Assembly: GCA_964402565.1 (NCBI GenBank)
Contig: CAYOCJ010000001.1
Coordinates: 568,823-632,822, forward strand
Direction: 5' to 3'
Origin: an uncultured Gammaproteobacteria bacterium
GTDB lineage: Bacteria > Patescibacteriota > Patescibacteriia > UBA1558 > 2-01-FULL-52-15
DNA: 64,000 nt
A model generated the notes under the pieces. The model did not search any database. It was not told where the DNA came from and was given only the letters and a program-made list of their open reading frames with translations. A program made the position numbers and the translations under genes. Each line of letters starts with the position of its first letter. The stretch's first letter is position 1. Shown piece after piece: positions 23,447-41,507 of this stretch.

Positions 23447-23458
23447 GGCATTGTTTCA

Positions 23459-24058: not shown

Positions 24059-25626
24059 ACGATATGTTCAAAAAGTACTCGATGATTCACGATCGTTACC
24101 GGTATACCCTCCTCAGATACTGCTGCGCTCGAAACAAGCTTGCTTTTTTGAACCACCGGCAGACTCTGTGCCAATAACTCCTGCTCCTGAACTCCTGACG
24201 GTAAAAAGAGAGCACATCGGCGTCCTTCATGAACCACAATAGCTACTGCAACCGCATGCAATGCTGAGGCGTCTGCCCCATCGACGAATGCGCCGATAGT
24301 GCGCACCGGGACCTTTGCATTTCGATAGCGATACTCCGTCGGAACTGCGCCATCGGAAGGTAATTGTATAATTTTTTCTACCGTAAATAAAGGCAATGCA
24401 AGATAGTAGGCGCCCCATTGCCAGGTCAATGCACGGAACAGCGTGGGAGCCAATGGAACAATCAATTCAAAGGTTGTGCCCTTATTCTTTCCCCGGTTCG
24501 CGCTTCGCATTTCCATCGTGCCATGCAAGCCTTCCAGCACGCTTCGTACAAAAGGAAGGCCGACCCCGCGACCTGAAACCAACGATGCCTGTTCCCGGGA
24601 GCTGACACCTGCGCCTATTAAGAACTGCATGCGAAGCTCAGGCTTCATTTTCATCAGTTTCTGCTTCGTAGTCCGGTTATTTCGCAAAACAGATCGTTCC
24701 AGAGCGTCCCAATCAATGCCATGTCCCGTATCGCTCACCATGACATGCATGGCGCCTGCCCGCAGGTCGAATGACAGCCGAATAACTCCGGTGTCTCCTT
24801 CGCGGAATCCATGGTCAACGGCATTTTTGATAAGCTGTACGCAGGCCTCCCGCAGTGCTTCCAGGACCTGCGATTCAAAACGCATGTCATGGTCTTTGAA
24901 TTCGAAGGTGATGAATTTCTTTTGCTGCCTTGAGAGATCACGCACGAGCCGTGATAAGAATGCGAAATATTGGCGTACCGGAATAAGTTTCATGTCGATG
25001 ATCGCTTTTCTCAGATCACTGGCATGCGTGGCGAGATTATAAAGGCCGACCTTGAGCGCACCGATATCGTTCGAATGTAGAACGCGCTGCAATTGCTGCT
25101 GGGAAATCACAATATCATTGACCAATGCATACGCATTTTCCAATTCTGCAGAACTAATGTCTACATACGAACTTAACGGTGCGTATATTGAGCTGGTGGT
25201 ATCGCTCGTTGTTTGCGCCTGAGGCGCCGCCTGATCTGCCGCGCGAGTTTTTTTCCCTGATGGCCGCAAAGTGAATGCAATAGCAGGCCCGAGGTCTATT
25301 TCACTATCTGACTCGCGGATGCTATCAAGGTTGCGCCGGAACGCATCAATCGCCATAAAGCATGCGTCAAGACTGTCGCTCCCCAGCGACCGATTCCCCT
25401 GACGAACTCCGATGAACAAATCCTCTACTTGGTGCAATGCATTTGCCAGCGCCTGGTAATTCATGGTCGCCGCATCACCTTTGAGCGCATGCAATTGCTG
25501 CAGAATCGCATCGATCCCTTTCTTGTCATGAGGATTTTTTTCAAGAAGTATCAGCACATCCTCAAGATGCTTCAATTTGAGCGCTGCCTCGGACAAAAAG
25601 AGCTGCTTGTACTGGCTTACGTGCAT
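24055..25626 (-). CDS. cheA: CheA-like chemosensory histidine kinase (Hpt, dimerisation, HATPase_c, CheW-like domains)
   Basis: 523 aa. Hpt QQLHALKGDAATMNYQALANALHQVED; kinase LIKNAVDHGFREGDTG, VSDTGHGID, SGRGVGLPFVRSVLEGLHGTMEM, GKNKGTTFELIVPLAP; C-terminal CheW-like region. Confidence 0.8.
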   Translation of the reverse strand: MHVSQYKQLFLSEAALKLKHLEDVLILLEKNPHDKKGIDAILQQLHALKGDAATMNYQALANALHQVEDLFIGVRQGNRSLGSDSLDACFMAIDAFRRNLDSIRESDSEIDLGPAIAFTLRPSGKKTRAADQAAPQAQTTSDTTSSIYAPLSSYVDISSAELENAYALVNDIVISQQQLQRVLHSNDIGALKVGLYNLATHASDLRKAIIDMKLIPVRQYFAFLSRLVRDLSRQQKKFITFEFKDHDMRFESQVLEALREACVQLIKNAVDHGFREGDTGVIRLSFDLRAGAMHVMVSDTGHGIDWDALERSVLRNNRTTKQKLMKMKPELRMQFLIGAGVSSREQASLVSGRGVGLPFVRSVLEGLHGTMEMRSANRGKNKGTTFELIVPLAPTLFRALTWQWGAYYLALPLFTVEKIIQLPSDGAVPTEYRYRNAKVPVRTIGAFVDGADASALHAVAVAIVVHEGRRCALFLPSGVQEQELLAQSLPVVQKSKLVSSAAVSEEGIPVTIVNHRVLFEHIV

Positions 25627-26051
25627 ATATAGGTAGTGATAAGTTTCGGAATGTCGATGATGGTGATCTTCCTTTTTTGATGGTCGGTATATCTGAGCGT
25701 ACAGGCGAGCAATGGTTTTTTAAAATCAGCCATGCGCGGATTTGCTATCAGCTGCCCGACTTTTTCAACTCGAATCGCATAGTACGCGCCTTCATGCCTG
25801 ACGATCACTGCCTGATTCGCATTTCGCGAAACTCCCAGATTCATGATAGGCGCACAGTCGACCACGGTCATCAATTGGCCGAGCATATAGCCCAAGCCAA
25901 GTACTGACCGAGATCGATTGCCGGGGATCGTCGTGATCTGCGCAAGCGCAGTGACGCCATCGACTTGATCGACCGGCAATGCATACCAGCGGTCTTGTAT
26001 CGTAAATGGAAGTAAGGTGGTGATTTTTTTTATGGTTGCCATTTTGATCAT
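25617..26051 (-). CDS. CheW-like coupling protein
   Basis: 144 aa. Single CheW-like domain (RWYALPVDQVDGVTALAQITTIPGNRSRSVLGLGYMLGQLMTVVDCAPIM...AVIVRHEGAYYAIRVEKVGQL). Overlaps the CheA start and the MCP stop. Confidence 0.6.
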   Translation of the reverse strand: MIKMATIKKITTLLPFTIQDRWYALPVDQVDGVTALAQITTIPGNRSRSVLGLGYMLGQLMTVVDCAPIMNLGVSRNANQAVIVRHEGAYYAIRVEKVGQLIANPRMADFKKPLLACTLRYTDHQKRKITIIDIPKLITTYICT

Positions 26052-27937
26052 TTTCGAGATCCAATAAGCGATCCTAATCGCTGTACGATCACGCTTAACT
26101 TAGAGACCGCGGTACTGTTCGTCTTTATGCCTTTTTTCTGTTCTACCGAAACTGCTTGTATTCTCGTGGCTTCGCGCAGCGTTGATTTCGCTTGCGTATG
26201 GAGGTCAGTCATGCGTAATGCGATCTGGCTGGTGCTTTCAGACTGCTTTGCAACCTGTTTGTCGATAGCCTGTACACTCAACGCAATTTGCATTGCATCT
26301 TTCGACATCTTATTCAAGCTTTCCAGAGCGCGCGTAATGACTGTGAGGCTGTCGACCGCTTCAGAGCGTTCCCGCGATGATGCTTCCTTGCTGCGAAGCA
26401 GCTGTTGCTGTATGGACTTAACCAGCTCATTGATATGCTCGCTGGCCTCTCTGCTCAGCAATGAGAGCTTGCCTACTTCCGATGCAAGGCTCGAAACGCT
26501 ATGCATGCCGCGGTCCGTAGAGCTTGCTTCGATCGTAGCATTTAAACTTGCGTACGTCGTAGCCTGTGCAAGCGAACGAACATCGGCAGCGATCGAATCT
26601 ACTTGTTCGCTATACCTGCCGAGAGTAGTAATGAGCCCTTCGTGGGCTGTTGCAAGCTTCTTAATGCTCGCAATGCTCGTACGCGCCTCCTCTGCGTCAC
26701 GCTGGCCTTTGACTGCCAAGGCATCGATCAACTGTACACTGGCTGCCGCTTTCGCCGTTAATTTCCGGATATCCGCAAGCGAATCGGCGATCTTGGTCCC
26801 ATCAGTATCAACAGCTTTCATATTCTTCAATTGGTCCTTATAGTTCGTGAGCAAGCTCGTTGCAACAGCTTCCTGCGAGATCATGGTCGCCTCTGCCGTT
26901 GCAATGCCTGACTGTATGGCTCCGGTCGACGAGGTAATATCGGTGATGGTTTTAAAAATCGGCTTCACCAAAATACGGCTGATGAGCCCGACGAAAATAT
27001 ATAAAATGCCGAGCATCAAAATAAGCGAACCAATATAGGTCAAAAGCTGTAAACGCTCCTGCTCTTTCAGCCTCCCGATAATTTCATTGCGATCGACCAT
27101 GGTGACGAGGTACTGGGGAGAACCTGCGATCGAGACCGGCGAAATATGTATCATGACGGTATGCCCTGCGAAGGTCGTTTGCGCGATAATGCCATTGTTC
27201 GGCCTGCTTTGCTCGAGCCATGCAGACAGCGGAACGGTTGCCGCTCCCTGATCCGGAATTCCCAGATCAAAAGGCTGAGTTATCAAAACGCCAGTCGTAT
27301 CCGTCAGAAAAATATCCGCGTGTTTTGCAAGCCGGTCAGTGTCGATCGCGGCGTCAGATCCTACGCCTTGGAGCGCAAATGCTTGATCGCTGACGCCTTC
27401 AGCGAGGAACTCGTCAATATCTTGAATGGGATAGCGGATGACGATCCATTGATTCCCGGTGTCGACGCGTCTGCCTATGAAAACCGAATCCTTCGAAAAA
27501 TGAACCGCAGATTGCAGGTCAGTCGGCTGCGGGACCCATAAGTCTGATTCATTGGTGCTGAGCTGATACTGCGTCTGCAGCGAGCCGCTCGAAGAGATGC
27601 CATATATGATGCCGCGCGAAGCAAGGCCGCTTTGATCCCGCACTACCCCAGCAAGCGCCTGATCAAGAGCTTTCGGCGATGTCAGGCCTGATTCACGGGC
27701 TTCGGTCTGCAATGCGATAGCTTCAGCAATTTTTTGCCGTTCATCGAGATAGCGTCTGATCTGAGATGCTTTGACCGATGAAAAAAGCCCAAGCTCCCGC
27801 TGTGCCGAAAGAATGATCGCCTGTCGTTGGAAATAATAGCCAAGACTGCCCACTATGCATGCCGGAAAAATACCAGCCACCAAAAACCACAGTGCAAATA
27901 TGGCATTTAACCTGCTATTGGCTCTCTCGATCATCAT
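26048..27937 (-). CDS. Methyl-accepting chemotaxis protein-like transducer (two TM helices, ~270-aa extracytoplasmic sensor, HAMP, divergent MCP signalling domain)
   Basis: 629 aa. TM helices near residues 10-35 and 300-325. Signalling core TTYASLNATIEASSTDRGMHSVSSLASEVGKLSLLSREASEHINELV resembles the MCP hairpin tip [33 protein letters not shown] but is divergent. Confidence 0.7.
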   Translation of the reverse strand: MMIERANSRLNAIFALWFLVAGIFPACIVGSLGYYFQRQAIILSAQRELGLFSSVKASQIRRYLDERQKIAEAIALQTEARESGLTSPKALDQALAGVVRDQSGLASRGIIYGISSSGSLQTQYQLSTNESDLWVPQPTDLQSAVHFSKDSVFIGRRVDTGNQWIVIRYPIQDIDEFLAEGVSDQAFALQGVGSDAAIDTDRLAKHADIFLTDTTGVLITQPFDLGIPDQGAATVPLSAWLEQSRPNNGIIAQTTFAGHTVMIHISPVSIAGSPQYLVTMVDRNEIIGRLKEQERLQLLTYIGSLILMLGILYIFVGLISRILVKPIFKTITDITSSTGAIQSGIATAEATMISQEAVATSLLTNYKDQLKNMKAVDTDGTKIADSLADIRKLTAKAAASVQLIDALAVKGQRDAEEARTSIASIKKLATAHEGLITTLGRYSEQVDSIAADVRSLAQATTYASLNATIEASSTDRGMHSVSSLASEVGKLSLLSREASEHINELVKSIQQQLLRSKEASSRERSEAVDSLTVITRALESLNKMSKDAMQIALSVQAIDKQVAKQSESTSQIALRMTDLHTQAKSTLREATRIQAVSVEQKKGIKTNSTAVSKLSVIVQRLGSLIGSRK

Positions 27938-28584: not shown

Positions 28585-29601
28585 CTAGTTTGACGTCGAG
28601 ATGATAGCCCTGGCTGCATCCCACATGGAGCTGTCGCCTTTTGTTTTAAGCAAATACCACCACTCCACTCCCCAAAAATAAGCCTGCTTGAAACCGGTCC
28701 TTCGTGCAAGCTCAGCATTTGTCTGCAGCTGCTGCACCGTGAATGATTTCGCAGCTTCCTCGGGACCTATATCCTGTACTTTCTTGAAATGTGCTGGCCA
28801 TGGTTCTGCCTGCAGCTCTGCAACGATAGCTGATTGAGGTGACTTGCCCGCAAATTTCGCTTTTACATCATACAGCCATGCGGGCCATGGCCAGCGGAAA
28901 TAGCCAAAATAATTATTCCACACAACTCGGTAAATGGTAATGCCAAGAATATCAGAAAAGTGGGCGGCCTTTCGCCATGTATTCAGCTCGCCAGAATCTG
29001 TCAAAATAAGCGGGCGCGGATCAGCGAGCCGCAAGTTGTTTATCTCAGTTTTGATCAAGTCTTCATCAGCTTTCGGGCATTCGCCAAACCATGAAAAGAA
29101 GTATTCATTTTCAAGCTGCCAGGCGCTGATCGATGATACGCTCTTGAAATGTTCAATTGCAGCCTTTGACATCGCCAGATGCGCCTGCTTCATATCAGCG
29201 TCTGAAAGCGAGTTTGACCACCCAGGCTGATGGCATTCGGGCCAGCGCGGCAAGCGGCGCCCGATATTCAAAATAAAATGTACATTGCGTTTCGTACCTT
29301 CTGCAAGCATCCAATCATAGTCGGAAAAATCGTAGGTTCCTTTCGTCCGCTCAATATCGTCCCAATACACGGGCAATCGCACCTGTTTGACCCCAAGGTC
29401 ATCAAGCATACTCGTATATGCAGCGCGCCAATCTAAGCCAAGCTCTTCTGCATATTTTTTTGAGAATGTCACTCCCCAGAAATGCTCCGGAACTTTTGAT
29501 TGCTGCAGCGTAAGGTGATGGCCCGCGAACTTGAAATACCAAAAACCCCAAACAATACAAAGAAACAAGATCAAAAATTTCTTAGAATGTCTGCGGCTCA
29601 T
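28585..29601 (-). CDS. Membrane-anchored glycoside hydrolase, clan GH-A TIM barrel (GH42/GH35-like beta-galactosidase/glycanase fold)
   Basis: 338 aa. VRLPVYWDDIERTKGTYDFSDYDWMLAEG resembles the GH-A N-terminal strand region. WQLENEYFF resembles the acid/base NEY(G) motif. N-terminal TM anchor. Confidence 0.45.
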   Translation of the reverse strand: MSRRHSKKFLILFLCIVWGFWYFKFAGHHLTLQQSKVPEHFWGVTFSKKYAEELGLDWRAAYTSMLDDLGVKQVRLPVYWDDIERTKGTYDFSDYDWMLAEGTKRNVHFILNIGRRLPRWPECHQPGWSNSLSDADMKQAHLAMSKAAIEHFKSVSSISAWQLENEYFFSWFGECPKADEDLIKTEINNLRLADPRPLILTDSGELNTWRKAAHFSDILGITIYRVVWNNYFGYFRWPWPAWLYDVKAKFAGKSPQSAIVAELQAEPWPAHFKKVQDIGPEEAAKSFTVQQLQTNAELARRTGFKQAYFWGVEWWYLLKTKGDSSMWDAARAIISTSN

Positions 29602-29604
29602 GCA

Positions 29605-30549
29605 TTAAATGGCTACGAAGTAGAGACCTATGCCGATGAAAATGAGTGCGGCAATTTTCTGCAGGATAACAGGAGCGCTAATATGTTCCTGCAATAATTT
29701 TGGCTTGAAAAATGTAATGAGCGCCGCAAACAAAAGAATGAATACATACTGGAAACTTTGCAGTGCTGATACGAGCGCAACGCTGACATGCGGGAACGAT
29801 ATGACATAACGCTGGCCGACAAATCCAATAGCTCCTAAACCCTGGCTTGCTAACCAAATCACTTTCATGCGGAATGAAAGCGGTTTCAGGCTGTTCGCGA
29901 TCGATGCACGAATGGATTTTGAAAAGGCTAAGAACACGAGCGCGACTGCAGTTCCAAGCTGTGGCCAGACCAGGCTATTCATGAAACCCTCTTCGCGGGA
30001 TAAGTATTGCGTCAGAACAAGAAAAAGAGAGAACGATAACGAGGCAGCAAGGGCATAGATGGTACCCCATCTCCTTGGCTGGCTTGTTTTTCCGCGAGGT
30101 GTAATGGAAATAATGATGGTTCCGATAACTAAAAATAAGAAAGCAAGGAACTTCGCTGTATCAAGCGGATCGTAGCTAAAGGTCATGAAAAAAGCCAAGA
30201 TCGGCATGCTGCCGCCTATGACAGGCAATACGCGCGATGCTTCTCCTTTTTGCAATGCCGTATACAGCAAGTAGATCGCCAGTGTAAAAATAATGCCGAC
30301 AAAAATTGCGACGAGCGTATGCCACAAAGTCATGAAGGTCAGAAGTCCGAATGGCATCGGCCGGCTGTCAATGAATTGGCTGACCATGACATCAATGACC
30401 AGCAAAGCCACAACGCCGACGCTCATCACCGAAACCCAGGTCGCATAGACGATACTTTCAGTGACAATGCTGGACAAAAAAATTTTATCAACCAGATTGC
30501 TGATGGATAAAATAAAGTATGAAATCAATATAATGTAGAGCCAATTCAT
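29605..30549 (-). CDS. Polytopic membrane protein (about 10 TM; DMT/EamA-like transporter fold guessed)
   Basis: 314 aa, highly hydrophobic throughout, two roughly repeated halves. Confidence 0.35.
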   Translation of the reverse strand: MNWLYIILISYFILSISNLVDKIFLSSIVTESIVYATWVSVMSVGVVALLVIDVMVSQFIDSRPMPFGLLTFMTLWHTLVAIFVGIIFTLAIYLLYTALQKGEASRVLPVIGGSMPILAFFMTFSYDPLDTAKFLAFLFLVIGTIIISITPRGKTSQPRRWGTIYALAASLSFSLFLVLTQYLSREEGFMNSLVWPQLGTAVALVFLAFSKSIRASIANSLKPLSFRMKVIWLASQGLGAIGFVGQRYVISFPHVSVALVSALQSFQYVFILLFAALITFFKPKLLQEHISAPVILQKIAALIFIGIGLYFVAI

Positions 30550-30655: not shown

Positions 30656-30775
30656 CTATTTACCGCACGGACAAGCGTTTCCGCATGAGCACTCTGGCGC
30701 TCCCGCGGTGCCGCATGCGCAACCGCAATCGCACCCTTCAGCGCCGCAATTGCATGATTTTTTTTCTTCGTCCAT
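30656..30775 (-). CDS. Unannotated 39-aa cysteine-rich peptide, metallothionein-like (10 Cys arranged as CxC motifs)
   Basis: Manual translation of the minus strand: MDEEKKSCNCGAEGCDCGCACGTAGAPECSCGNACPCGK* (ATG = revcomp of cat 30773-30775; TAG = revcomp of cta 30656-30658). Below the 60-aa ORF-track threshold. The track ORF 30574..30786 is in another frame. Confidence 0.5.
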   Translation of the reverse strand: MDEEKKSCNCGAEGCDCGCACGTAGAPECSCGNACPCGK

Positions 30776-30842: not shown

Positions 30843-32183
30843 TTATAACTGCTCGATGACCGAGCGCAATTCTCGCATATGACTGCCTTCGTACTCTTCT
30901 CGTGTAATATGCGCAGCTGCATACAATGCATTCAGCGGCTTGCTGTCTTTCACCTGGTAATGACGAGGATAATGATATTCGATAGGTCCATTGTCGAGCA
31001 CGATAATGTGCTGCCGCTGGAGATAATCTCTTAGTGCCTGATCATTGCCATGGCTTCGGAATCCGCCTTGCACCGCAAGCGCCGCCAATGCGTCGTGATC
31101 AAGCATCACCGTATACGGAATATGAAAAATCTTCATCAGTTCAATATAGACATCGATATTGCTCTTACCATGGACATGTATCACCTTGATATCATCCGGC
31201 CCCTGATAAAACCGGTCAATCAAACCGCGCATCAAGATCCGGTCAGACACTCCCTCGACAAGCAGGACCTTATCGGCGAAGAACATTTCCAGATTATCAG
31301 CGTTCAGCTCCTGCACGAGTCGCTCCTGATCAAATTGACTCGGGTTTTGAGCGAGTGAATATACGTGACTACCGTCAGCATCTTTGAGCACACGATACAC
31401 TTGCCGCAATGTATACGCGGTCACAAATAAGGGTGAATGCGTCGTCATGATGATCTGGCAGGTTGCCCTGCTGCTCAGAATCTTGAGCAGCTTCTTGATC
31501 ATACCCGGATGTAAGTGGATTTCAGGCTCATCGATCATGACGATGGAGTATTCAGGATGCAGCGCATACAGCAAAATGACTAGCACACGCCGAAAGCCGC
31601 CGCCAAGCCGGTCGATCGTAATGCTTTTTGGCCCTACTGATACTGAACCAAATCCGGCAGATGAATCATCCACAATACTATTGATGCTTTCAACTTCCGG
31701 GAAATGGTCATGCAATAGATTTGTTAATACACCGAACTGCTGCGGGTATTTTTGAGCAAAAGAAGTATAATCTTTTTCTATCTGAAAAAAATCAGAAAAA
31801 TCCTCATACCTGAGCATTTTACACCTGCGGCTCAAGGTGGTCATTAACTCTGGTGAAAGTTTCCGCGAATGATCATCAGACGCATTGACTTCATAGTGCG
31901 TGCCTTTGAAGAAGACGCGCTGGCCGCCATGCAGCAGATCCTGGCCATGCGATCCTAACTCCAGCGTCATCATGATCTCAGAACGATAGTGGTGTAGCCG
32001 GGTAGGAGACAACTCTGGATGCAAAACAAAATCTATGGCGTCCAGAATATTGGTTTTGCCGCAATTATTCGGGCCAATAAATACATTAAAATTCGGCGAA
32101 AGCGGTATGCTGACGGGGTGAATAAAGCTCTTATAAGACCCTATCCAGAGATCCGAAATGACCATGCAACAAGTATAGCACAC
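30843..32183 (-). CDS. OLD-family (overcoming lysogenization defect) ABC-type ATPase with C-terminal TOPRIM nuclease domain; candidate anti-phage defence nuclease
   Basis: 446 aa. Walker A FIGPNNCGKTNILDAIDF, signature-like LGGGFRRVL, Walker B with the OLD/AAA_21 hallmark IVMIDEPEIHLHP, H-loop MTTHSP. TOPRIM-like VLLVEGVSDRIL and VMLDHDALAA (DxD). The likely true start is a few codons downstream (MVISDLW). Confidence 0.7.
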   Translation of the reverse strand: MCYTCCMVISDLWIGSYKSFIHPVSIPLSPNFNVFIGPNNCGKTNILDAIDFVLHPELSPTRLHHYRSEIMMTLELGSHGQDLLHGGQRVFFKGTHYEVNASDDHSRKLSPELMTTLSRRCKMLRYEDFSDFFQIEKDYTSFAQKYPQQFGVLTNLLHDHFPEVESINSIVDDSSAGFGSVSVGPKSITIDRLGGGFRRVLVILLYALHPEYSIVMIDEPEIHLHPGMIKKLLKILSSRATCQIIMTTHSPLFVTAYTLRQVYRVLKDADGSHVYSLAQNPSQFDQERLVQELNADNLEMFFADKVLLVEGVSDRILMRGLIDRFYQGPDDIKVIHVHGKSNIDVYIELMKIFHIPYTVMLDHDALAALAVQGGFRSHGNDQALRDYLQRQHIIVLDNGPIEYHYPRHYQVKDSKPLNALYAAAHITREEYEGSHMRELRSVIEQL

Positions 32184-32251
32184 TGCGATACACCAAACCG
32201 CCCTGCGCCGGGTCGGCGCAGGGCGGTTCTAACAGCGATTACAATGTCTGG

Positions 32252-33662: not shown

Positions 33663-34307
33663 TTAGAGCTGTACAGGATATGCTTCGACTACAATACGAT
33701 TTTTACTCGTAAATTTGGGCGTGCAGCTGAATAAGGTCAGCTTTGGAGTCTTGGTATTTGCAAGGATGTCTACCTTGCTTGGTTTCACGATCGAGACTTT
33801 AGCTACAGCGTAATGATACTCCTTGCCCTCCCATGTCAGAGAGATAGGATCGCCGACCTTCATTTTGTCGATGTCCCAGAATGTTTTTGTACTTGGAGGA
33901 CGCCACATGTATCGATGTGCAGAGATCACCGTATTGCCGCCCTTTGCAGGCGTAGATGTGCCAGGCACATGCCATAAACCCTTGTTCAGAGTTTTTTCGC
34001 TTTTTCCTTCTAGCACGGCACTGTTCACGCCCATGCGGGAAACTACCAGAGTGTTCGTCACTTGTTTAACCGGCGGCTTTGTCGGAACAATTACTTTCTT
34101 CACCGTAGCAGCCTGAACAACCGGCACAGGGAATGAAAGATTCTGTGAAGTCACCGTTGCTGTTACCGCTTGCTCATCTTCGTTCGCATATGTCTGCAAA
34201 GCTGCATGAGCGCCGAGTACACCTACGCCAAACCCTGCTGCTAAGGCGAGTAGCGAGATGACCGCTACGAAGCGGACTGAGAATTTATTGCGATTGTCGA
34301 TAGGCAT
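33663..34307 (-). CDS. Sortase (transpeptidase, sortase family)
   Basis: 214 aa. N-terminal TM anchor. Catalytic His region GGNTVISAHRYM (cf. sortase NTVLAGHR), Cys motif LTLFSCTP (cf. LTLITCTP), downstream Arg NRIVVEA. Confidence 0.75.
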   Translation of the reverse strand: MPIDNRNKFSVRFVAVISLLALAAGFGVGVLGAHAALQTYANEDEQAVTATVTSQNLSFPVPVVQAATVKKVIVPTKPPVKQVTNTLVVSRMGVNSAVLEGKSEKTLNKGLWHVPGTSTPAKGGNTVISAHRYMWRPPSTKTFWDIDKMKVGDPISLTWEGKEYHYAVAKVSIVKPSKVDILANTKTPKLTLFSCTPKFTSKNRIVVEAYPVQL

Positions 34308-37300
34308 AAAAGAATGAGCTTATTGAAGTCGAGATAAAGAGAACTGTCAAGACTAATAGCCAAGCGCCGACATTTTCGCCACCGGTATCCGGCAATGTCT
34401 TGAATGGCGCTTCAACACCCAAGACGACTGGTTTGAAGACCTGTACATTGACCGAATCTTCGACCGGCTGGCCATTTCGAATGGTTGCGGTCGCGTGATT
34501 GACATAGGTACCCGTTGCTACTGAATTATCAATATGCACCGCATAGGTAGTTGTCTGTACCGAGCCGACGCTCATCGGAGCAAAGTCCCATGTCTTGAAT
34601 CCAGTGCCACCGTCAACGAAGGTAAAGCCAGATGGCAATGTGTCTGATAATTTAGGATCATACGCAACCGTGTTGCCTGTATTCTTGATCACAACCGTAT
34701 AGGTAACAGTGTCGCCAGCTTCTACGGTGTTTTTATCTACGGTCTTATCGATAGAGATGGTAGGTACTGAGAAGAATCCTCCGCCACCACCGCCTCCTCC
34801 TCCACCTCCGCCACCACCGCCACAATTTGATGTGCATGATGGATTCGAATTTGAAGGCGTCACACATTGGCCATCGCTGTTAACTACCATACCCTCAGGC
34901 ACGGTGCTTTGAACACCATCGATATTCGGACACATGTCGGTCGGCGGCACCGGTTTCGGTGCATTGAATGCTACACAGTAGTAGGTATTTCCAGCTGAGA
35001 CAGCTTCAATATTGTCATAGTTGTCATAATGGTTCGTATCCTTATGGCAATAGATCTCAGCAGTTACATTATCTGCATTAGGACTTTGCGGCGGATAGGT
35101 GAACGGAATGTAGCCATCCTTTAATACTTCACGAACCCACAGCGATGGAGCTCCTTCAAGGTCGCTGATCGTTGCAGTAGCGACGCCTTCGGCATTAGTA
35201 ACACCGAACGTTTTCCAGTCGCTATAGTTCGTACCGGTAGTAGTATTTGGTCCGCAATAGGGTGCATCGCACATACCAGTAGAATCTCCGGCAGCCGTAG
35301 CCTCACCTATGAAGTCGCCTTTTAATTTATCAACGCCTTCCTGGCCGTCCTTATCGCCGAAACCCCATTGGAAGTTCCAATCAGGAGTCAGGTAGCAATG
35401 CGGATGATCTGCAATAAAGGCTGCTGATGTAGTTGAGGTAATATTCGGCATGCCAGTTTCTCCCCAATTCGGGAGGTCTGCTTCTGAATCGCAGACGATC
35501 TTTGTAGCAATGACGGAGACCGGCTCTATCGTACATTGCGATGAGCAGCCATCACCATTTGCAGTATTTCCGTCATCACAGGCTTCACCAGCTTCCATGA
35601 TGCCGTTTCCGCATTGCGGGCCGGTAACTGGCGGCTGGAAGTTAGCCAGTTTGCATTGATAATCAGATGAACCGTCAGCAAGTATGGTGCAGGAGCCGGT
35701 AACCGGAGTCCAGCCATCTTGCATAACCTCGCGGACCATATAGTCCCCTTGTTCTAAGTTATTGAAGCAATATCCGGTATCGGTAGTAACCGCAGTATCT
35801 ACCAGCGTATAGGGATCATCACCGCAGGTATAGGTCCAGCCATGGCCTGTAATAGCGAGACAGTTTTCATTATCCTGGAGTATTTTTTTATTCTTTATGG
35901 TTTCATCGCTGACGCCGGAAATAGTGTCAGTAATTGAACCGATGATATTTGAGATAATGCTTGGCGCATTTTTCTTATAGAGCTGAATGGTCCAGCCAGA
36001 GAGGTTCTCTTCACCTGGATCCTGAACCGCATTTTGGTTCTTATCATTGAATTTAACTCCGCAAATATTCGAAGTATTCGTTGCCTGCAACGTGCATTGC
36101 TCGGTACAAACCTGATGATCGCCGACGCCGTCAGTGCCATCGCATTGTTCGTCGCCATTCTTGACGCCATCACCGCAATACGGGACAGCCTCTATTTGGC
36201 ATTGATCAGTACAGATTTGATGATCGCCGACGCCGTCTGTGCCATCGCATTGCTCATTAGCATTTTTGATATGATCTCCACAGTATGGAAGATCCTGAAT
36301 AGTGCATTGCTGTGTGCAGGATTGATGATCGCCAACGCCGTCAGTGCCATCGCATTGTTCGTCGCCATTCTTGACGCCATCACCGCAAAAATCGGTACAG
36401 ATCAAGGTGCATTGCAGTGTGCAGGATTGATGATCGCCAACGCCGTCAGTGCCATCGCATTGTTCGTCGCCATTCTTGATATTGTCGCCACAGTACGGGA
36501 CATTCTCCAGAGTGCATTGGCTCGTGCAGCTTTGATGCGGGCCGACGCCGTCAGTGCCATCGCATTGTTCAGTGCCCTCTTTCACATGATTACCGCAGCT
36601 TGGAGCTATGATAGTCGTAGGCTCATCAACGCATACCCAGCGATTATACTCCTGAGTCCAGAAGCATGCGCGGTTATTCAGCACATCTCCGTTCACGACA
36701 GACTCAGACACATGCATCTTGATATGGACTTCGTTTATCTCGCCAGGCGGCACTTCACCGAAGTTCCAATGGTTATTACCATCGACTGGTGACGGGATGC
36801 TTGAGATATAGGATGTACGATTGTCGTAGTACTCTTTGATCTCAACTCCCCCGCCGGTGCAGTAACCGGTGCCGGTATTTGTAAGGCGTAATGTGTAGGT
36901 CAATTCAGAACCAGGCGCTACCGGATCAGCACTATCTGTTTTAACGAGTTCCATACGGCAGAATGGTTCAAGCTTACAATACTTGTTGCATCCGTCGCCG
37001 TTATTGTTATTGCCATCGTCACACTGTTCTGCTTTACCTTCTCCGTTCGGATTTTGTATCGTTCCGTCGCCGCAATAGCTGAGATTTTCAAGCGTGCACT
37101 GGCTCGTACAACGCTGATGCGGACCGACACCGTCTGTGCCGTCACATTGCTCAGTGCCTTCTTTCACATTATTTCCGCATTGAGCTGCGTAAATACATTG
37201 AGGCTTTTTTGGATTTTCAGTTTCGTAAAAAGTATATATGCGTTCACCGATCGTTGCCGAATCCTGCAATTGCTGCAAGGTGGCAGAACCATCAGCCATA

Positions 37301-37893
37301 ACTTGCTCGAGTTTTGTCAACGCTTGTTTGATCGTCGACTGGTCATTCAAGTTCAACCTATCAAAAGCAGAATCGCCATTATCACCGCCTGAAACCAAAG
37401 CATTCAATTGCAAATGGCCTGCGGCAATATTCGATTCATCAGCTAACAAAAATTGGCTCAGCTTACAGCGAGTAGCCGGAATGTCTCCTCCGCTGCAAAC
37501 GGTAGCTAATTCGGTACAGATCTGGCTTGCTCCAATACTGGAGTATACGCCTGAGAAATACTGTGATGACATATTCCTGATCTGCGTCTTCCAGACGCTT
37601 TCGCCGGTGCCATTATGGCAGCCATCATTATTTTTATAATAGCCCTTTGACTTTGCATCACAGGCAGGCCCTGAAGAACTCGTGGCCAGCGCCAGGGACG
37701 TCAATTTGCTCAAAATCCCCGTACTGCCTGCAGCACGATAGACCAAAGGTGATGCCATTGGTAAAACAATATTCACGCTCAAAAAGATGACAGCTATTGT
37801 TTTAAGTAATGATTTCTTACGCATAGGCTTATTTTTTACCCTATAATTTTGCTTAAAATTAGGCTTTTTTAATGGGAAATTAATAAATAACAT
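34285..37893 (-). CDS. LPXTG cell-wall-anchored surface protein: signal peptide, multiple Myxococcus-type cysteine-rich repeats (CGDG...EQCDDGN...GDGC), poly-Gly linker, DUF11-like beta domain, LPDTG sorting signal
   Basis: 1202 aa. Repeats such as YCGDGVKNGDEQCDGTDGVGDHQSCTQQCT and CGNGIMEAGEACDDGNTANGDGCSSQCT. CGGGGGGGGGGGGGGGFF tract. TYTVVIKNTGNTVAYDPKLSDTLPSGFTF (DUF11-like). C-terminal FKTLPDTGGENVGAWLLVLTVLFISTSISSFFYAYRQSQ (LPXTG, hydrophobic segment, charged tail). Stop overlaps the sortase start. Confidence 0.8.
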   Translation of the reverse strand: MLFINFPLKKPNFKQNYRVKNKPMRKKSLLKTIAVIFLSVNIVLPMASPLVYRAAGSTGILSKLTSLALATSSSGPACDAKSKGYYKNNDGCHNGTGESVWKTQIRNMSSQYFSGVYSSIGASQICTELATVCSGGDIPATRCKLSQFLLADESNIAAGHLQLNALVSGGDNGDSAFDRLNLNDQSTIKQALTKLEQVMADGSATLQQLQDSATIGERIYTFYETENPKKPQCIYAAQCGNNVKEGTEQCDGTDGVGPHQRCTSQCTLENLSYCGDGTIQNPNGEGKAEQCDDGNNNNGDGCNKYCKLEPFCRMELVKTDSADPVAPGSELTYTLRLTNTGTGYCTGGGVEIKEYYDNRTSYISSIPSPVDGNNHWNFGEVPPGEINEVHIKMHVSESVVNGDVLNNRACFWTQEYNRWVCVDEPTTIIAPSCGNHVKEGTEQCDGTDGVGPHQSCTSQCTLENVPYCGDNIKNGDEQCDGTDGVGDHQSCTLQCTLICTDFCGDGVKNGDEQCDGTDGVGDHQSCTQQCTIQDLPYCGDHIKNANEQCDGTDGVGDHQICTDQCQIEAVPYCGDGVKNGDEQCDGTDGVGDHQVCTEQCTLQATNTSNICGVKFNDKNQNAVQDPGEENLSGWTIQLYKKNAPSIISNIIGSITDTISGVSDETIKNKKILQDNENCLAITGHGWTYTCGDDPYTLVDTAVTTDTGYCFNNLEQGDYMVREVMQDGWTPVTGSCTILADGSSDYQCKLANFQPPVTGPQCGNGIMEAGEACDDGNTANGDGCSSQCTIEPVSVIATKIVCDSEADLPNWGETGMPNITSTTSAAFIADHPHCYLTPDWNFQWGFGDKDGQEGVDKLKGDFIGEATAAGDSTGMCDAPYCGPNTTTGTNYSDWKTFGVTNAEGVATATISDLEGAPSLWVREVLKDGYIPFTYPPQSPNADNVTAEIYCHKDTNHYDNYDNIEAVSAGNTYYCVAFNAPKPVPPTDMCPNIDGVQSTVPEGMVVNSDGQCVTPSNSNPSCTSNCGGGGGGGGGGGGGGGFFSVPTISIDKTVDKNTVEAGDTVTYTVVIKNTGNTVAYDPKLSDTLPSGFTFVDGGTGFKTWDFAPMSVGSVQTTTYAVHIDNSVATGTYVNHATATIRNGQPVEDSVNVQVFKPVVLGVEAPFKTLPDTGGENVGAWLLVLTVLFISTSISSFFYAYRQSQ
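34775..34835 (-). repeat. In-frame (GGN)n simple-sequence tract encoding about 15 consecutive glycines
   Basis: Plus strand ccgccaccaccgcctcctcctccacctccgccaccaccgcc (purine/pyrimidine-skewed triplet repeat). Coordinates approximate. Confidence 0.7.
36090..36610 (-). repeat. Tandem ~114-nt coding repeats (about 4.5 copies) encoding the Cys-rich CGDG...EQCDGTDGVGDHQxCT modules
   Basis: Repeated DNA units gattgatgatcgccaacgccgtcagtgccatcgcattgttcgtcgccattcttga... visible by eye. Further degenerate copies occur near 37000-37200. Confidence 0.7.
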
Positions 37894-37947: not shown

Positions 37948-39303
37948 TCAATAGGGCAAAATAGTCCCCAATTGCTTCATGTCGGTTATCTTTTCAGCTA
38001 TGATCTTCTCAATATTGAAGGTGCCGAATTTGGGAGCTTCTATAAAGCCCTGAAGTGCTGCTTCGGCAAGCCAGCCGCTGTCCAACCAGTCAAAAAGCCA
38101 CTCTGAGGTATAGTCCGGGTCTTCTTGATATGCCCCGCAACCGATTGATTCTACCCAAAGCCGGTTAAATCGCTCCTGCGAGCCGATGGGAGGCGCTATG
38201 ACCAGCGGAATACCGAGTGCAGCGTAAAAGCTCAGTTCAGATGGCTTGGTCCACAGAATATCAGTTGTCCGCAAAGCTTGGTCGAATTTCTTGAAGTACT
38301 CGAATTTCGAATTTGCGAACACGATATGGATATGCTTATCAAGCTCATGCATCAACCCCATGGAGCGGACCGCATCATTGAAAAACTTGCTGACTTCATT
38401 ATGTATCCCTGCAACCATGGTAAAACTTATCTGGTGTTGAAGGATCTTATTTTTTAAGCTCCTCAAAATTTGAACAGCTAGTTCGCGTTGTGCTCCTGCA
38501 CCGCCGACGGGGAAGGTGAGCGTTAATGGATGCAGCGAGTGACGCGGCAATGCGTGAGCACCCAAATGCTCTTTGACGGTCTCATGGTACTGCTTATAGT
38601 AATTTCTTTTCGGATCAAGATTCACGAGGCGGTAAAGAATATCCTGTTTCAGGCGTGTCAATCGATCATTGCCCAAATTTTCTAATGGCAATGGAAATCC
38701 GGTAAGAAAAATATTATCTTCTTTGATGCCGTAGAGCTTGAGGCGATTTGCGACGCGATAGGTCGGCGCAAAATAGCGTATGCGAGAACGAGAAGGGTAT
38801 TGCGGCACCCACGCGCGGCTGATATCAGTATCCGTCGCTAAGCAGTATATGTCTCCCGGATATTCGAAATGCTCAGCCATGAATGCAGGAATGAAGAACG
38901 TGCAGATTAACGGCAATGGTTTTTTTGAAAGTTTTTCGATCAAATGCTTGCCCCAATTTGAATTGCGGATCAGCGACATGATCTGCGTCACCTGCAAAGT
39001 CGGCGCTGAGAGATCGCGCTTCGGATAGAATGGCGGTATGCTCTGCAGGGTATCGTACAACTCGAACACCTCTTCGCCGATCAAAGGAACTTGTTTGAAG
39101 CGTGAGATGAATTCATAGAAGCGGCGCGAGTTCCGCCAAATTTTCCGATCATGCACGGGGATGCCAGGGTAATTATTTGCATTCAAAATATCGCCCTCGG
39201 CGAGATACCTCAAAGGAAATGCAGCACGCTGATGCCCATATCCCATATCGACGCTGATGACCCATGCTTTCGGGTGTGTATGTGTTTTTGTTTCCTCCTG
39301 CAT
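37948..39303 (-). CDS. GT-B glycosyltransferase, MGDG-synthase / UgtP (GT28)-like, putative glycolipid synthase
   Basis: 451 aa. N-terminal VISVDMGYGHQRAAFPL resembles the MGDG_synth G-x-GH-x-x-A motif. C-terminal ILWTKPSELSFYAALGIPLVIAPPIGSQERFN resembles the GT-B nucleotide-sugar-binding half. Confidence 0.5.
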   Translation of the reverse strand: MQEETKTHTHPKAWVISVDMGYGHQRAAFPLRYLAEGDILNANNYPGIPVHDRKIWRNSRRFYEFISRFKQVPLIGEEVFELYDTLQSIPPFYPKRDLSAPTLQVTQIMSLIRNSNWGKHLIEKLSKKPLPLICTFFIPAFMAEHFEYPGDIYCLATDTDISRAWVPQYPSRSRIRYFAPTYRVANRLKLYGIKEDNIFLTGFPLPLENLGNDRLTRLKQDILYRLVNLDPKRNYYKQYHETVKEHLGAHALPRHSLHPLTLTFPVGGAGAQRELAVQILRSLKNKILQHQISFTMVAGIHNEVSKFFNDAVRSMGLMHELDKHIHIVFANSKFEYFKKFDQALRTTDILWTKPSELSFYAALGIPLVIAPPIGSQERFNRLWVESIGCGAYQEDPDYTSEWLFDWLDSGWLAEAALQGFIEAPKFGTFNIEKIIAEKITDMKQLGTILPY

Positions 39304-40955: not shown

Positions 40956-41507
40956 CTAGCGAATTTTATCAAGAATGTGCCTACTCTCGTCAGGGTTAAA
41001 CCCTTTTAACGCTAACCATGCATACACCTTGGAGTTTATTTGGTATTTCTTTTTTGGATCAGCTCCGTATTTCTCGTGAAGTCTCTGGTATTTGATCTTT
41101 GCAGCCGAGGTAATCTTTTCTAAATCCTGCTTTCCGCCATTTTCCTCAAATTCTTTTAACACGTCGTCAACAATGTGCATTGGAAGCTTGCGAGACATCA
41201 TTTTCCTGCGAATAACCCGCATACCGTCTTTTTTATCTTTCAATAGCTCGAAGAGGCGAGCAGCATACTTTCTATCGTCAACCAGCCCCTGCTGGCACAG
41301 TTTCTCAACTACTTTCTGAGCATTTTCCTTAGTATAAAAAACATAGCGGATCGTATCAGGGTACAATTTTTTTAGCCGAACGATTCGGTCTACCAGACGC
41401 TTTTCAGAAACTTCGCCATCGGCAAGCCAGGCGAGCATCTTTTGATAGATATGCTGAAGGTCAGGATCGTCGAATGTTTGCCGATCTGTCATAGAGAGAT
41501 TATACAC
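40956..41507 (-). CDS. recX: RecX-like regulatory protein (RecA regulator family)
   Basis: 183 aa. All-helical, with three-fold repeated ~45-aa helical modules and a basic/acidic pattern typical of RecX; weak motif-level match. Confidence 0.5.
   Translation of the reverse strand: MYNLSMTDRQTFDDPDLQHIYQKMLAWLADGEVSEKRLVDRIVRLKKLYPDTIRYVFYTKENAQKVVEKLCQQGLVDDRKYAARLFELLKDKKDGMRVIRRKMMSRKLPMHIVDDVLKEFEENGGKQDLEKITSAAKIKYQRLHEKYGADPKKKYQINSKVYAWLALKGFNPDESRHILDKIR

What the first reader, a model, noticed from the sequence alone, without database searches (positions are those of the whole stretch)
30843..32183. Stand-alone OLD-family ATPase-TOPRIM nuclease: candidate anti-phage defence gene
The ORF combines an ABC-type ATPase (GPNNCGKTN, LGGGF signature, and the OLD/AAA_21 hallmark DEPEIHLHP Walker B) with a C-terminal TOPRIM-like region (VLLVEGVSDR ... 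LDHD). This is the architecture of OLD nucleases, the P2 Old / class 1 OLD type. The related Gabija GajA and PARIS AriA pair with a partner, but no partner (UvrD-like helicase or AriB) is adjacent here. At 446 aa it is shorter than typical class-1 OLD proteins (~580 aa). It sits between unrelated housekeeping-type genes and next to a tiny Cys-rich ORF, which is a defence-island-like context.
Basis: partly seen in the sequence, partly recalled or inferred. Interest (0 to 1): 0.65.

Follow-up and report, generated by a model that had tools for sequence, protein, structure and literature searches.

The report
Compact single-gene OLD nuclease in CPR bacterium
The gene encodes an intact but unusually short ATP-driven OLD-family nuclease from a little-studied branch found only in ultra-small bacteria and archaea; it stands alone, but it sits stably among housekeeping genes, not in a defence island, so an anti-phage role is plausible and unproven.

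Summary
A minus-strand ORF (30843..32183; the true start is probably ATG 32165, giving 440 aa) encodes an ABC-ATPase plus OLD-type TOPRIM protein. Every quoted motif is present. Pfam AAA_15, AAA_21 and OLD-like_TOPRIM all exceed their cut-offs. The best PADLOC model is Old, and the best structural match is the class 1 Thermus scotoductus OLD (6P74). All experimentally defined ATPase and two-metal nuclease residues are present and invariant across 27 homologs.

It is not a typical P2-Old/class 1 protein. It belongs to a small, discrete family (about 417-484 aa) restricted to Patescibacteria (CPR), with longer cousins in DPANN archaea. This is the uncharacterised clade U2 of a published OLD phylogeny. 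The shortness comes mainly from a reduced dimerisation insert in the ATPase.

No partner gene is conserved across four or more genomic contexts, so it is truly stand-alone. The context is not defence-island-like: neighbours are envelope, pilus, tRNA and ribosomal genes, with zero PADLOC hits. OLD clades coincide with context groups, which indicates vertical inheritance, yet 80 of 80 related DUF6938 loci lack the gene. Function is either lineage-fixed defence or Cran1-like DNA housekeeping. It is a new member of a known kind, of moderate-low interest.

The parts
30843..32165 (-). OLD-family ATPase-TOPRIM gene, 440 aa from the probable ATG start. The mechanical ORF extends to the GTG at 32183 (446 aa).
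   Evidence: ORF. Pfam AAA_15, AAA_21 and OLD-like_TOPRIM. PADLOC Old 5.6e-38. Start inferred from alignment A1 and the upstream -10 box.
31314..32165 (-). ABC ATPase domain (about residues 7-290 in 446-aa numbering). Walker A is G37-N45 with K43. The signature-like motif is LGGGF 193-197. Walker B is D218/E219, the D-loop His is H225 and the H-loop His is H249. The helical insert is short (helices 132-145 and 147-160) where Ts OLD carries its four-helix dimerisation domain.
   Evidence: Invariant columns in A1. Mapping to Ts OLD K34/E276/H283/H310 via the profile alignment and PMC7049728. Secondary structure of the AF2 model.
30843..31283 (-). OLD-type TOPRIM nuclease domain plus short C-terminal helices (about residues 301-446). 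Metal A ligands are E310, D362 and D364. Metal B ligands are D314 and E402. Invariant K415 (or variable R407) is a candidate transition-state residue.
   Evidence: PF20469 covers residues 301-364. Alignment to Ts OLD E377/D381/D431/D433/E480. Invariance in A1. Four-stranded TOPRIM core in the model.
32171..32179 (-). TGcTATACT extended -10-like box ending 6 nt before the ATG. This geometry suggests a leaderless-type transcription start.
   Evidence: Sequence. A TATACT/TATAAT hexamer lies at the same distance (-12) in 8 loci (window, L003, L006, L007, L014, L016, L017, L026) and at -13/-14 in L024 and L001, covering several context groups.
32200..32232 (-). GC-rich hairpin followed by UUUGGUGU after the upstream CAP-domain gene. 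It is a likely intrinsic terminator that insulates the OLD gene.
   Evidence: Fold energy -35.9 kcal/mol, z = -5.8, and 0 of 200 shuffles fold as well.
30656..30775 (-). 39-aa Cys-rich (metallothionein-like by composition) small ORF downstream of OLD. It is probably a real but separate gene and not an obligate partner.
   Evidence: ORF. The Cys pattern is conserved in L001 and L003, an analogous ORF occurs in L010, and no such ORF is found in the other 21 OLD loci. Promoter-like site 30827-30799. Hairpin after the ORF. No Pfam or PADLOC hit.

Best explanation
The gene encodes a catalytically intact, compact OLD-family enzyme. Its N-terminal ABC ATPase head carries a much reduced dimerisation insert and is fused to a class-1-like TOPRIM two-metal nuclease. 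The protein belongs to a discrete clade confined to Patescibacteria, with longer relatives in DPANN archaea (clade U2 of a published OLD phylogeny).

The gene works as a single-gene unit. In this genome it has its own leaderless-type promoter and is insulated by a terminator upstream.

Inferred mechanism, by homology to Ts OLD, P2 Old and Vc OLD: ATP binding and hydrolysis by dimerised ATPase heads gate a Mg2+-dependent TOPRIM active site that nicks or cleaves nucleic acid (DNA or structured RNA such as tRNA). The most likely biological role is a chromosomally fixed, single-gene anti-phage or anti-mobile-element system of the class-1-like kind, inherited vertically within CPR lineages and lost in others.

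Shown here: architecture, residue conservation, fold, clade membership, lack of a partner, synteny and the patchy distribution. Inferred: enzymatic activity, substrate, trigger and the defence role.
For: Domains: Pfam AAA_15, AAA_21 and OLD-like_TOPRIM are above their cut-offs. The best PADLOC model is Old (5.6e-38), ahead of GajA and AriA.

Fold: the AF2 model has pLDDT 88 and pTM 0.87. The top Foldseek PDB hit is 6P74, the Ts OLD class 1 structure (E 1.6e-20), followed by GajA and retron Eco8 OLD. The family profile against PDB also ranks 6P74 first (1.4e-27).

Catalytic residues: those validated by mutagenesis in Ts OLD (PMC7049728) align to K43, D218/E219, H225 and H249, and to E310/D362/D364 and D314/E402. 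All are invariant in 27 homologs at about 40% identity.

Single gene: the neighbours differ among context groups. These are CAP>OLD>EamA, DUF6938>OLD>EamA, DSP-phosphatase>OLD>MnmA, HAD>OLD and MacB>OLD.

Accessory character: 0 of 80 metagenomic DUF6938 loci (52-63% identical to the window's DUF6938) carry OLD. In about 35 of them DUF6938 abuts EamA or the GH-like gene directly.

Literature: class 1 OLDs are single genes typically not next to other defence genes (PMC10568477). Vc OLD and P2 Old give abortive-infection defence.
Against: No experiment exists for any member of this clade.

The context is entirely housekeeping, with zero PADLOC hits in 10 neighbours. In another lineage the gene lies just upstream of the MnmA-AlaRS-IF1-S13-S11-S4-RpoA region.

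OLD clades coincide exactly with genomic-context groups, and the tree topology is largely congruent with the neighbouring DUF6938 gene. That indicates long-term vertical inheritance, not the frequent horizontal transfer typical of defence genes.

OLD diverges at a rate similar to its housekeeping neighbours: 38-42% identity, against 30-36% for EamA, 44-48% for the GH-like protein and 47-51% for DUF6938.

No close relative was found in 2.9 million viral contigs.

There is a precedent for a vertically inherited OLD clade with a non-defence role, Cran1.
Confidence: 0.55

Rival explanations
1. It is a housekeeping DNA- or chromosome-processing OLD, analogous to Cran1. The enzyme would be a vertically inherited ATP-regulated nickase used in replication, chromosome maintenance or repair, or in processing of imported DNA, in genome-reduced CPR and DPANN symbionts. 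It would not be an immune gene.
For: OLD clades equal context groups, the two EamA-linked groups are sisters, and the topology is largely congruent with the neighbour DUF6938. The gene is embedded among envelope, pilus, tRNA and ribosomal genes. The length is uniform and there are 58 invariant columns. There are no viral relatives and no defence neighbours. Cran1 (clade U11) shows that such a pattern can mean a non-defence role. The clade is restricted to ultra-small symbionts.
Against: The gene is absent from 80 of 80 related DUF6938 loci, including lineages that branch between the two OLD-bearing clades. It might lie elsewhere in those genomes, which could not be checked. It occupies at least four different loci across Patescibacteria. 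Only about 26 clusters at 50% identity exist, a small number for a core CPR gene. Class 1 OLDs are also typically isolated from defence islands, so the context does not discriminate strongly.
Confidence: 0.3
2. It is a two-component unit with a neighbour. One candidate partner is the downstream Cys-rich peptide, acting as a metal-binding regulator or antitoxin. The other is the upstream DUF6938 glycosyltransferase-like protein, to which OLD is translationally coupled in one clade.
For: A Cys-rich small ORF lies 10-68 nt after OLD in the window, L001, L003 and the distant L010. The background is 1 such ORF in 750 kb of OLD-less loci. The DUF6938 stop overlaps or abuts the OLD start in many loci.
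Against: No Cys-rich ORF was found in the other 21 of 25 OLD loci, and it has its own promoter-like site. DUF6938 occurs without OLD in 80 of 80 other loci, where it often abuts or overlaps EamA instead. OLD occurs without DUF6938 in the MnmA, HAD and MacB contexts. DUF6938 weakly resembles diglucosyl-diacylglycerol synthases.
Confidence: 0.05
3. It is a RecF/SMC-like housekeeping ABC ATPase with no nuclease function.
For: There are weak N-terminal matches to SMC_N, RecF, SMC and Rad50 models.
Against: The TOPRIM domain is detected at 9.6e-16 with all metal ligands invariant. The full-length fold match is to OLD, GajA and Eco8. The SMC and RecF matches cover only the Walker A region and lie far below the curated cut-offs.
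Confidence: 0.02

Closest known systems
Clade U2 of OLD-family proteins (Yang et al. 2025, EMBO Rep, PMC12796447; uncharacterised; CPR bacteria plus DPANN archaea)
   Same: There is full-length similarity to U2 CPR members: 37-40% identity with E about 1e-80 to MFA5030183 and OIP80295, and 33% to a Kerfeldbacteria member. The family profile retrieves U2 members as its top non-self hits: P0124 = OIP80295, P0129 = MBI2427004 and P0137 = Nanoarchaeota MBU0666826. The signature motifs QELNADN.EMFFAD.VLLVEG and IDEPEIHLHP are shared.
   Different: The DPANN members are about 526-538 aa, with a much longer ATPase insert. The window protein belongs to the shortest subgroup (about 420-450 aa). No function is known for U2, so membership gives no mechanism.
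Class 1 OLD nucleases (Thermus scotoductus OLD, PDB 6P74; P2 Old; Vibrio cholerae Vc OLD; E. coli YbjD)
   Same: [quoted passage not shown] The TOPRIM lacks the class 2 helical insert and the large C-terminal helical domain. [quoted passage not shown] Class 1 gives the best structural and profile match.
   Different: It is about 85 aa shorter than Ts OLD and about 140 aa shorter than P2 Old. Most of the deficit lies between Walker A and the signature motif: 134 aa here against 199 aa in Ts OLD, which reduces the four-helix dimerisation domain to two short helices. It keeps a canonical Walker B Asp (D218) where Ts OLD has Glu. It retains an LGGGF signature-like motif, whereas Ts OLD is described as lacking a defining ABC signature. 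The Ser of the metal B triad is not conserved (Pro in the window). Sequence identity is only about 18%. It lies outside the 500-600 aa class 1 range.
Gabija GajA (class 2 OLD)
   Same: The ATPase-TOPRIM architecture is the same. GajA gives strong PADLOC and Foldseek matches.
   Different: No GajB/UvrD-like helicase gene is adjacent here or in any of about 27 homologous loci. The protein lacks the class 2 TOPRIM helical insert and is 130-200 aa shorter.
Cran1 / class 5 OLD of Sulfolobales (clade U11)
   Same: It is a lineage-restricted OLD clade with vertical inheritance and housekeeping neighbours, and the ATPase and TOPRIM are intact.
   Different: It is a different clade (U2, not U11) in bacterial hosts. 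Here the gene is patchy between lineages, whereas Cran1 is conserved across the whole order. Essentiality and expression are untested.
PARIS AriA/AriB (class 4) and retron Eco8 OLD (class 3)
   Same: The ABC ATPase is homologous (AriA 1.2e-27 in PADLOC; Eco8 model 3.4e-21 in NCBIfam).
   Different: The ATPase and TOPRIM are fused, so no separate AriB exists. There is no reverse transcriptase or ncRNA nearby, with no Rfam hit in the window. The NCBIfam score of 75 bits is far below the Eco8 cut-off of 250.

Membership tests
OLD family (ATPase-TOPRIM nucleases) | N-terminal ABC-type ATPase with Walker A, Walker B, D-loop and H-loop | tested here: met
   AAA_15 1.4e-26 and AAA_21 1.9e-24. K43, D218/E219, H225 and H249 are invariant and align to Ts K34/E276/H283/H310.
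OLD family (ATPase-TOPRIM nucleases) | C-terminal OLD-type TOPRIM domain with conserved Glu and DxD plus second-metal ligands | tested here: met
   PF20469 9.6e-16, 58.5 bits against a cut-off of 23.2. E310, D314, D362, D364 and E402 are invariant and align to Ts E377/D381/D431/D433/E480.
OLD family (ATPase-TOPRIM nucleases) | Overall fold matches solved OLD structures | tested here: met
   AF2 model pLDDT 88.4. The top Foldseek hit is 6P74 at E 1.6e-20, followed by GajA and Eco8 OLD.
OLD family (ATPase-TOPRIM nucleases) | Metal-dependent nuclease and ATPase activity | not testable with these tools
   This requires purified protein. Only residue conservation is available.
Class 1 OLD | Single isolated gene with no helicase, RT or AriB partner | tested here: met
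   The neighbours are CAP-domain, EamA-like and other envelope-type genes. No gene is conserved next to OLD across the context groups.
Class 1 OLD | Length about 500-600 aa (cut-off used in PMC12392090, after Dot et al. 2023) | tested here: not met
   440 aa (446 as the mechanical ORF). The whole family is 417-484 aa. The length criterion is quoted.
Class 1 OLD | Four-helix dimerisation domain inserted in the ATPase (Ts OLD) | tested here: inconclusive
   Only two 14-residue helices (132-145 and 147-160) plus a low-confidence loop (171-177) occupy the equivalent position. The Walker A to signature spacing is 134 aa against 199 aa. Whether this still mediates dimerisation cannot be told from a monomer model.
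Class 1 OLD | TOPRIM without the class 2 helical insert or the C-terminal helical domain | tested here: met
   The model has a four-stranded core (strands 305-309, 332-336, 357-361 and 393-395) with only short helices after residue 401. This fits the description of Ts OLD.
Class 1 OLD | Phylogenetic placement within the class 1 clade | tested here: not met
   The closest published sequences are labelled U2, not class 1, in Dataset EV1 of PMC12796447. The profile search shows a discrete family, with a drop from more than 230 bits to 184 bits or less for generic OLDs.
Clade U2 (Yang et al. 2025) | Closest similarity to U2 reference sequences, better than to other clades | tested here: met
   BLASTP gives 40%, 37% and 33% identity over 373-398 aligned columns to three U2 CPR members (E 1e-57 to 1e-81), against E 3e-21 (U4) and 7e-13 (U3). 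The reference sequences were truncated to 400 aa in the held file.
Gabija (class 2 OLD) | GajB UvrD-like helicase gene immediately downstream | tested here: not met
   Downstream lie a 39-aa ORF and an EamA-like transporter. No helicase was found next to OLD in any homologous locus examined.
PARIS (class 4) / retron (class 3) | Separate AriB TOPRIM gene, or RT plus ncRNA | tested here: not met
   The TOPRIM is fused. There are no Rfam hits in the 64 kb. No RT or AriB is among the neighbours. The NCBIfam Eco8 score is 75.5 against a cut-off of 250.
Defence island resident | Neighbouring genes are known or candidate defence or mobile-element genes, and the locus is variable | tested here: not met
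   There are 0 PADLOC hits for 10 neighbours. No tRNA genes were found in the 64-kb window and no integrase- or transposase-type domain was seen among the genes scanned. GC content is not anomalous. Synteny is conserved across lineages. The OLD gene itself is present or absent between lineages.

The most novel reading that the evidence does not exclude
The U2 OLD clade, confined to the ultra-small episymbiotic CPR bacteria and DPANN archaea and inherited vertically inside housekeeping neighbourhoods, is not an immune gene. Instead it would be a domesticated ATP-gated nickase with a cellular DNA function, such as chromosome or replication maintenance as for Cran1, or processing of DNA taken up through the adjacent type IV pilus machinery for nucleotide salvage. 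This would make it a second, independent case of OLD recruitment to housekeeping, and the first in bacteria.
Probability: 0.25. Interest if true: 0.65.

Novelty: new member of a known kind. Interest (0 to 1): 0.35.

Why it matters
OLD nucleases are a major effector family in bacterial immunity (P2 Old, Gabija, retron Eco8, PARIS). Their stand-alone members are the least understood, and one archaeal clade was recently shown to act in the cell cycle and not in defence. This gene is a clean example of an uncharacterised clade (U2) limited to genome-reduced CPR and DPANN organisms, which carry few recognised defence systems. Its minimal size, with a reduced dimerisation insert and a fully conserved catalytic core, makes it an attractive minimal OLD for structural and biochemical work. 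Its evolutionary pattern, stable within lineages, absent between them and always among housekeeping genes, makes the 'defence or housekeeping' question directly testable. As an annotation matter it is ordinary: a correctly recognised OLD-family gene whose defence-island context was over-read.

Tried and rejected
1. NCBIfam gave no match above any curated cut-off; the best was retron Eco8 effector at 75 bits against a cut-off of 250. No equivalog name can be assigned.

2. tRNA and Rfam scans of the whole window found nothing. There is no retron ncRNA and no tRNA-linked integration site.

3. The IMG/VR scan with the family alignment gave only distant partial OLD hits, the best at E 8e-15. A phage origin is rejected.

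4. I considered DUF6938 as a functional partner, because its stop overlaps the OLD start in many loci. I rejected it because 80 of 80 further DUF6938 loci lack OLD and OLD occurs elsewhere without DUF6938. DUF6938 weakly resembles diglucosyl-diacylglycerol synthases.

5. I considered the Cys-rich ORF as a partner. I rejected it as obligate because it follows OLD in only 4 of 25 loci. It has no Pfam or PADLOC family.

6. The low-GC stretches of the window (1-5 kb, 41-44 kb, 60-63 kb) were checked for mobile or defence content. They encode asparaginase-like, histidine kinase, aminotransferase, peptidase and glycosyltransferase proteins.

7. The simple terminator scan missed the strong hairpin after the CAP gene. 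It was found by reading the sequence and confirmed by folding.

9. I did not obtain model coordinates, so the identity of the residue equivalent to Ts R487 (K415 or R407) remains a guess.
Full report
OBSERVATION

The ORF is real. It lies at 30843..32183 on the minus strand and is 446 aa with a GTG start.
- GPNNCGKTN (residues 37-45)
- LGGGF (193-197)
- DEPEIHLHP (218-226)
- VLLVEGVSDR (306-315)
- LDHD (361-364)

Homologs begin at the residue aligned with M7 (alignment A1). The six extra codons overlap a TGcTATACT -10-like box. The gene is therefore most likely 30843..32165, giving 440 aa from an ATG.

A GC-rich hairpin followed by a U-rich tract (-35.9 kcal/mol, z = -5.8) ends the upstream CAP-domain gene. 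A TATACT or TATAAT hexamer sits exactly 6 nt before the OLD ATG in the window and seven other loci, and 7-8 nt before it in two more. These ten loci cover several genomic-context groups. This suggests an independently transcribed, leaderless-type unit.

WHAT THE PROTEIN IS

- Pfam: AAA_15 (1.4e-26), AAA_21 (1.9e-24), OLD-like_TOPRIM PF20469 (9.6e-16; residues 301-364) and SMC_N, all above their cut-offs.
- PADLOC: Old ranks first (5.6e-38), ahead of many GajA models and AriA.
- NCBIfam: no curated cut-off is reached.
- Structure: an AlphaFold2 model built on 27 homologs is confident (pLDDT 88.4, pTM 0.87). Its best PDB match is the class 1 OLD of Thermus scotoductus, 6P74 (E 1.6e-20), followed by Gabija GajA and retron Eco8 OLD. 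SMC and Rad50 heads match only the ATPase part. A family-profile search of PDB sequences gives the same ranking, with 6P74 at 1.4e-27.

I used that alignment together with the mutational data in Schiltz et al. 2020 (PMC7049728). The Ts OLD residues map as follows:
- ATPase residues K34, E276, H283 and H310 correspond to K43, D218/E219, H225 and H249.
- Metal A ligands E377, D431 and D433 correspond to E310, D362 and D364.
- Metal B ligands D381 and E480 correspond to D314 and E402.

All of these are invariant among 27 homologs that are only about 40% identical. The third metal B ligand (Ts S478) is variable here; it is Pro in the window. The equivalent of Ts R487 is probably invariant K415 or variable R407, which I could not resolve. 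The enzyme therefore looks catalytically competent in both domains.

WHY IT IS SHORT

The profile alignment places Ts residues 46-245 opposite residues 49-183 here, which is 199 aa against 134 aa. In the model this region holds only two 14-residue helices and a disordered loop, where Ts OLD has a four-helix dimerisation domain. The TOPRIM has the plain four-stranded core with short terminal helices, as in class 1. It has no class 2 insert and no C-terminal helical domain.

The shortness is a property of the family and not a truncation. Close homologs are uniformly 415-451 aa. In an exhaustive search of 1.84 billion representatives:
- About 26 clusters at 50% identity match end to end, at 417-484 aa and more than 300 bits.
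- A handful of proteins of about 530 aa score 234-317 bits.
- Scores then drop to 184 bits or less for ordinary 600-690-aa OLD/GajA proteins.

WHICH FAMILY

All named close homologs come from Patescibacteria (Komeilibacteria, Nomurabacteria, Parcubacteria). The window is probably from a Komeilibacteria-like organism.

The OLD phylogeny of Yang et al. 2025 (PMC12796447) defines eleven uncharacterised clades. Its Dataset EV1 labels Kerfeldbacteria, Parcubacteria and Patescibacteria sequences, together with Nanoarchaeota, Woesearchaeota and other DPANN sequences, as clade U2.

The window protein matches U2 CPR members over the whole held length, at 37-40% identity and E about 1e-80. It matches U3 and U4 far more weakly. 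My profile's top non-self hits are those very U2 sequences: P0124 = OIP80295, P0129 = MBI2427004 and P0137 = Nanoarchaeota MBU0666826 at 526 aa.

The protein is therefore a member of clade U2. It is closest in fold to class 1, but it fails the 500-600 aa class 1 length criterion and does not sit among the sequences labelled class 1.

CONTEXT AND EVOLUTION

The neighbours in the window are a DUF6938 protein, a DUF11/DUF4215 surface protein, a sortase and a CAP-domain protein upstream. Downstream lie the Cys-rich ORF, an EamA-like transporter, a GH-like protein, a pilin-like protein and an MCP-CheW-CheA-response regulator-PilB cluster. The DUF6938 protein weakly resembles diglucosyl-diacylglycerol synthases. 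None of ten neighbours hits any PADLOC model. The 64-kb window has no tRNA or Rfam hit, GC content is unremarkable, and no integrase- or transposase-type domain appeared among the genes I scanned.

Among 21 full-length homologs found in GTDB species representatives, plus loci fetched by exact protein look-up, the gene occurs in a few fixed contexts:
- CAP>OLD>EamA>GH-like (Komeilibacteria-like)
- DUF6938>OLD>EamA>GH-like (Nomurabacteria-like; the DUF6938 stop often overlaps the OLD start)
- DSP-phosphatase>OLD>MnmA>AlaRS>IF1, followed in L247 by S13-S11-S4-RpoA
- HAD>OLD
- MacB>OLD

No neighbour is common to all contexts, so the gene is truly stand-alone.

A neighbour-joining tree of the OLD proteins recovers these context groups as clades. 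The two EamA-linked groups are sisters, and the internal topology largely mirrors that of DUF6938. Relative to the window, OLD identity (38-42%) lies between that of EamA (30-36%) and those of GH-like (44-48%) and DUF6938 (47-51%) in the same loci. This is the signature of long-term vertical co-inheritance.

The gene is nevertheless not universal. I fetched 80 metagenomic loci through DUF6938, all 52-63% identical to the window's copy. That is closer than the Nomurabacteria-like carriers. None has an OLD homolog within the flank held. In about 35 of them DUF6938 abuts EamA or GH-like directly. In the DUF6938 tree the carriers form two separate monophyletic clades separated by OLD-less lineages. 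The simplest reading is one old insertion upstream of EamA followed by several losses; relocation elsewhere in those genomes is an alternative I could not check. No close relative exists in IMG/VR.

THE CYS-RICH ORF

The ORF at 30656..30775 (-) encodes MDEEKKSCNCGAEGCDCGCACGTAGAPECSCGNACPCGK. All ten Cys are conserved in L001, and the pattern is kept in L003. A different Cys-rich 48-aa ORF follows OLD in the distant L010. No such ORF was found in the other 21 OLD loci, and the background is one such ORF in 750 kb of OLD-less loci. It has its own promoter-like site and a following hairpin, and no Pfam or PADLOC family. It is probably a real small gene but not an obligate partner.

MECHANISM

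Shown here: an intact ABC ATPase head and an intact two-metal TOPRIM site in one polypeptide, with no partner gene.

Inferred from Ts OLD, P2 Old, Vc OLD and GajA: ATP binding and hydrolysis by head-to-head ATPase dimers controls access of the TOPRIM site to nucleic acid. The enzyme then nicks or cleaves DNA (Ts OLD, Vc OLD, Cran1) or structured RNA (P2 Old cuts tRNA anticodon stems). Substrate and trigger cannot be inferred from sequence.

ROLE

Two readings remain.

Defence (about 0.55). This is supported by homology to Old, single-gene organisation, between-lineage patchiness and multiple loci. Class 1 OLDs are characteristically not in defence islands.

Housekeeping, Cran1-like (about 0.3). 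This is supported by clade-equals-context vertical inheritance, housekeeping neighbours including a ribosomal-operon flank, a neighbour-like substitution rate, absence from viruses and restriction to genome-reduced symbionts.

A two-component unit with DUF6938 or the Cys-rich peptide is largely excluded by distribution. The RecF/SMC-only alternative is excluded by the TOPRIM evidence.

VERDICT

The assignment to the P2 Old/class 1 type needs refining to the uncharacterised CPR/DPANN clade U2. The 'defence-island-like context' is not supported. The defence role is plausible but untested. This is a new member of a known kind. Interest is moderate-low (0.35), with some upside if the clade proves to be a second case of OLD domestication for a cellular function.

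Noticed in passing
window 30656-30775 (-); L001 2074-2232; L003 9348-9530; L010 8364-8510: A 39-aa ORF with 10 Cys (CxC repeats, metallothionein-like by composition) lies just after OLD. The Cys pattern is conserved in two related loci, and an unrelated-sequence Cys-rich ORF sits at the same position in a distant locus. It has no Pfam or PADLOC family. It has its own promoter-like site and a following hairpin.
   Followed up: partly
window 32171-32179 (-) and the equivalent positions in L001, L003, L006, L007, L014, L016, L017, L024, L026: A TATACT/TATAAT -10 hexamer lies 6 nt (7-8 nt in L001 and L024) upstream of the OLD ATG in loci from several context groups. This implies leaderless transcripts. 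Similar TATACT boxes also precede the Cys-rich ORF and the EamA-like gene.
   Followed up: partly
window 37948-39303 (-), 29605-30549 (-), 28585-29601 (-); L166-L245: A conserved envelope-type block, DUF6938 (GT-B-like, weak match to diglucosyl-DAG synthase) > EamA-like transporter > GH-like membrane-anchored protein, is widespread in Patescibacteria and often has overlapping stop and start codons. OLD (and in Komeilibacteria also CAP, sortase and surface-protein genes) is inserted into it.
   Followed up: partly
window 21773-27937 (-): A chemosensory-like cluster (MCP, CheW, Hpt-HATPase CheA-like, and a response regulator with zinc-ribbon per the precomputed Pfam on the L001/L003 homologs) lies directly next to a PilB/T2SSE ATPase. 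It is conserved in the Komeilibacteria loci L001 and L003. This is a Chp/Pil-type control module in a CPR genome.
   Followed up: no
window 34285-37893 (-) and 33663-34307 (-): A 1202-aa surface protein has about seven Cys-rich 'CGDG..EQCDGTDGVG.HQ.CT.QCT' repeats (DUF4215-type), a run of 15 glycines, a DUF11 domain and a C-terminal TM anchor. Its gene overlaps a sortase gene. Comparable sortase and surface-protein genes sit upstream of OLD in L006, L007, L017 and L026.
   Followed up: no
L010 8571-9005 (-) and 9180-10295 (+): In one Nomurabacteria-like locus the OLD-EamA gap carries extra inserted genes: a 144-aa Cys/His-rich ORF that looks like a possible transposase or regulator, and a 371-aa pilin-like secreted protein. 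The site downstream of OLD can therefore accept insertions.
   Followed up: no
L016, L021, L024, L025, L247 (upstream of OLD): In the MnmA-context lineage, OLD is preceded by a conserved 466-aa unknown protein (DUF8128 in L247), a TrwB/HerA-like coupling-protein ATPase and a dual-specificity phosphatase. It was not tested whether these form a functional module with OLD.
   Followed up: no
window 40956-41507 (-): A 183-aa protein shows weak RecX-like three-helix repeats (below the Pfam cut-offs).
   Followed up: no
GTDB record titles of L006, L010-L012, L016-L018, L022, L024, L026: Several MAGs carrying this CPR-type gene cluster are titled 'uncultured Gammaproteobacteria bacterium'. Their gene content (DUF6938, EamA, PilB synteny identical to Patescibacteria loci) suggests placeholder or erroneous taxonomy labels.
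   Followed up: no
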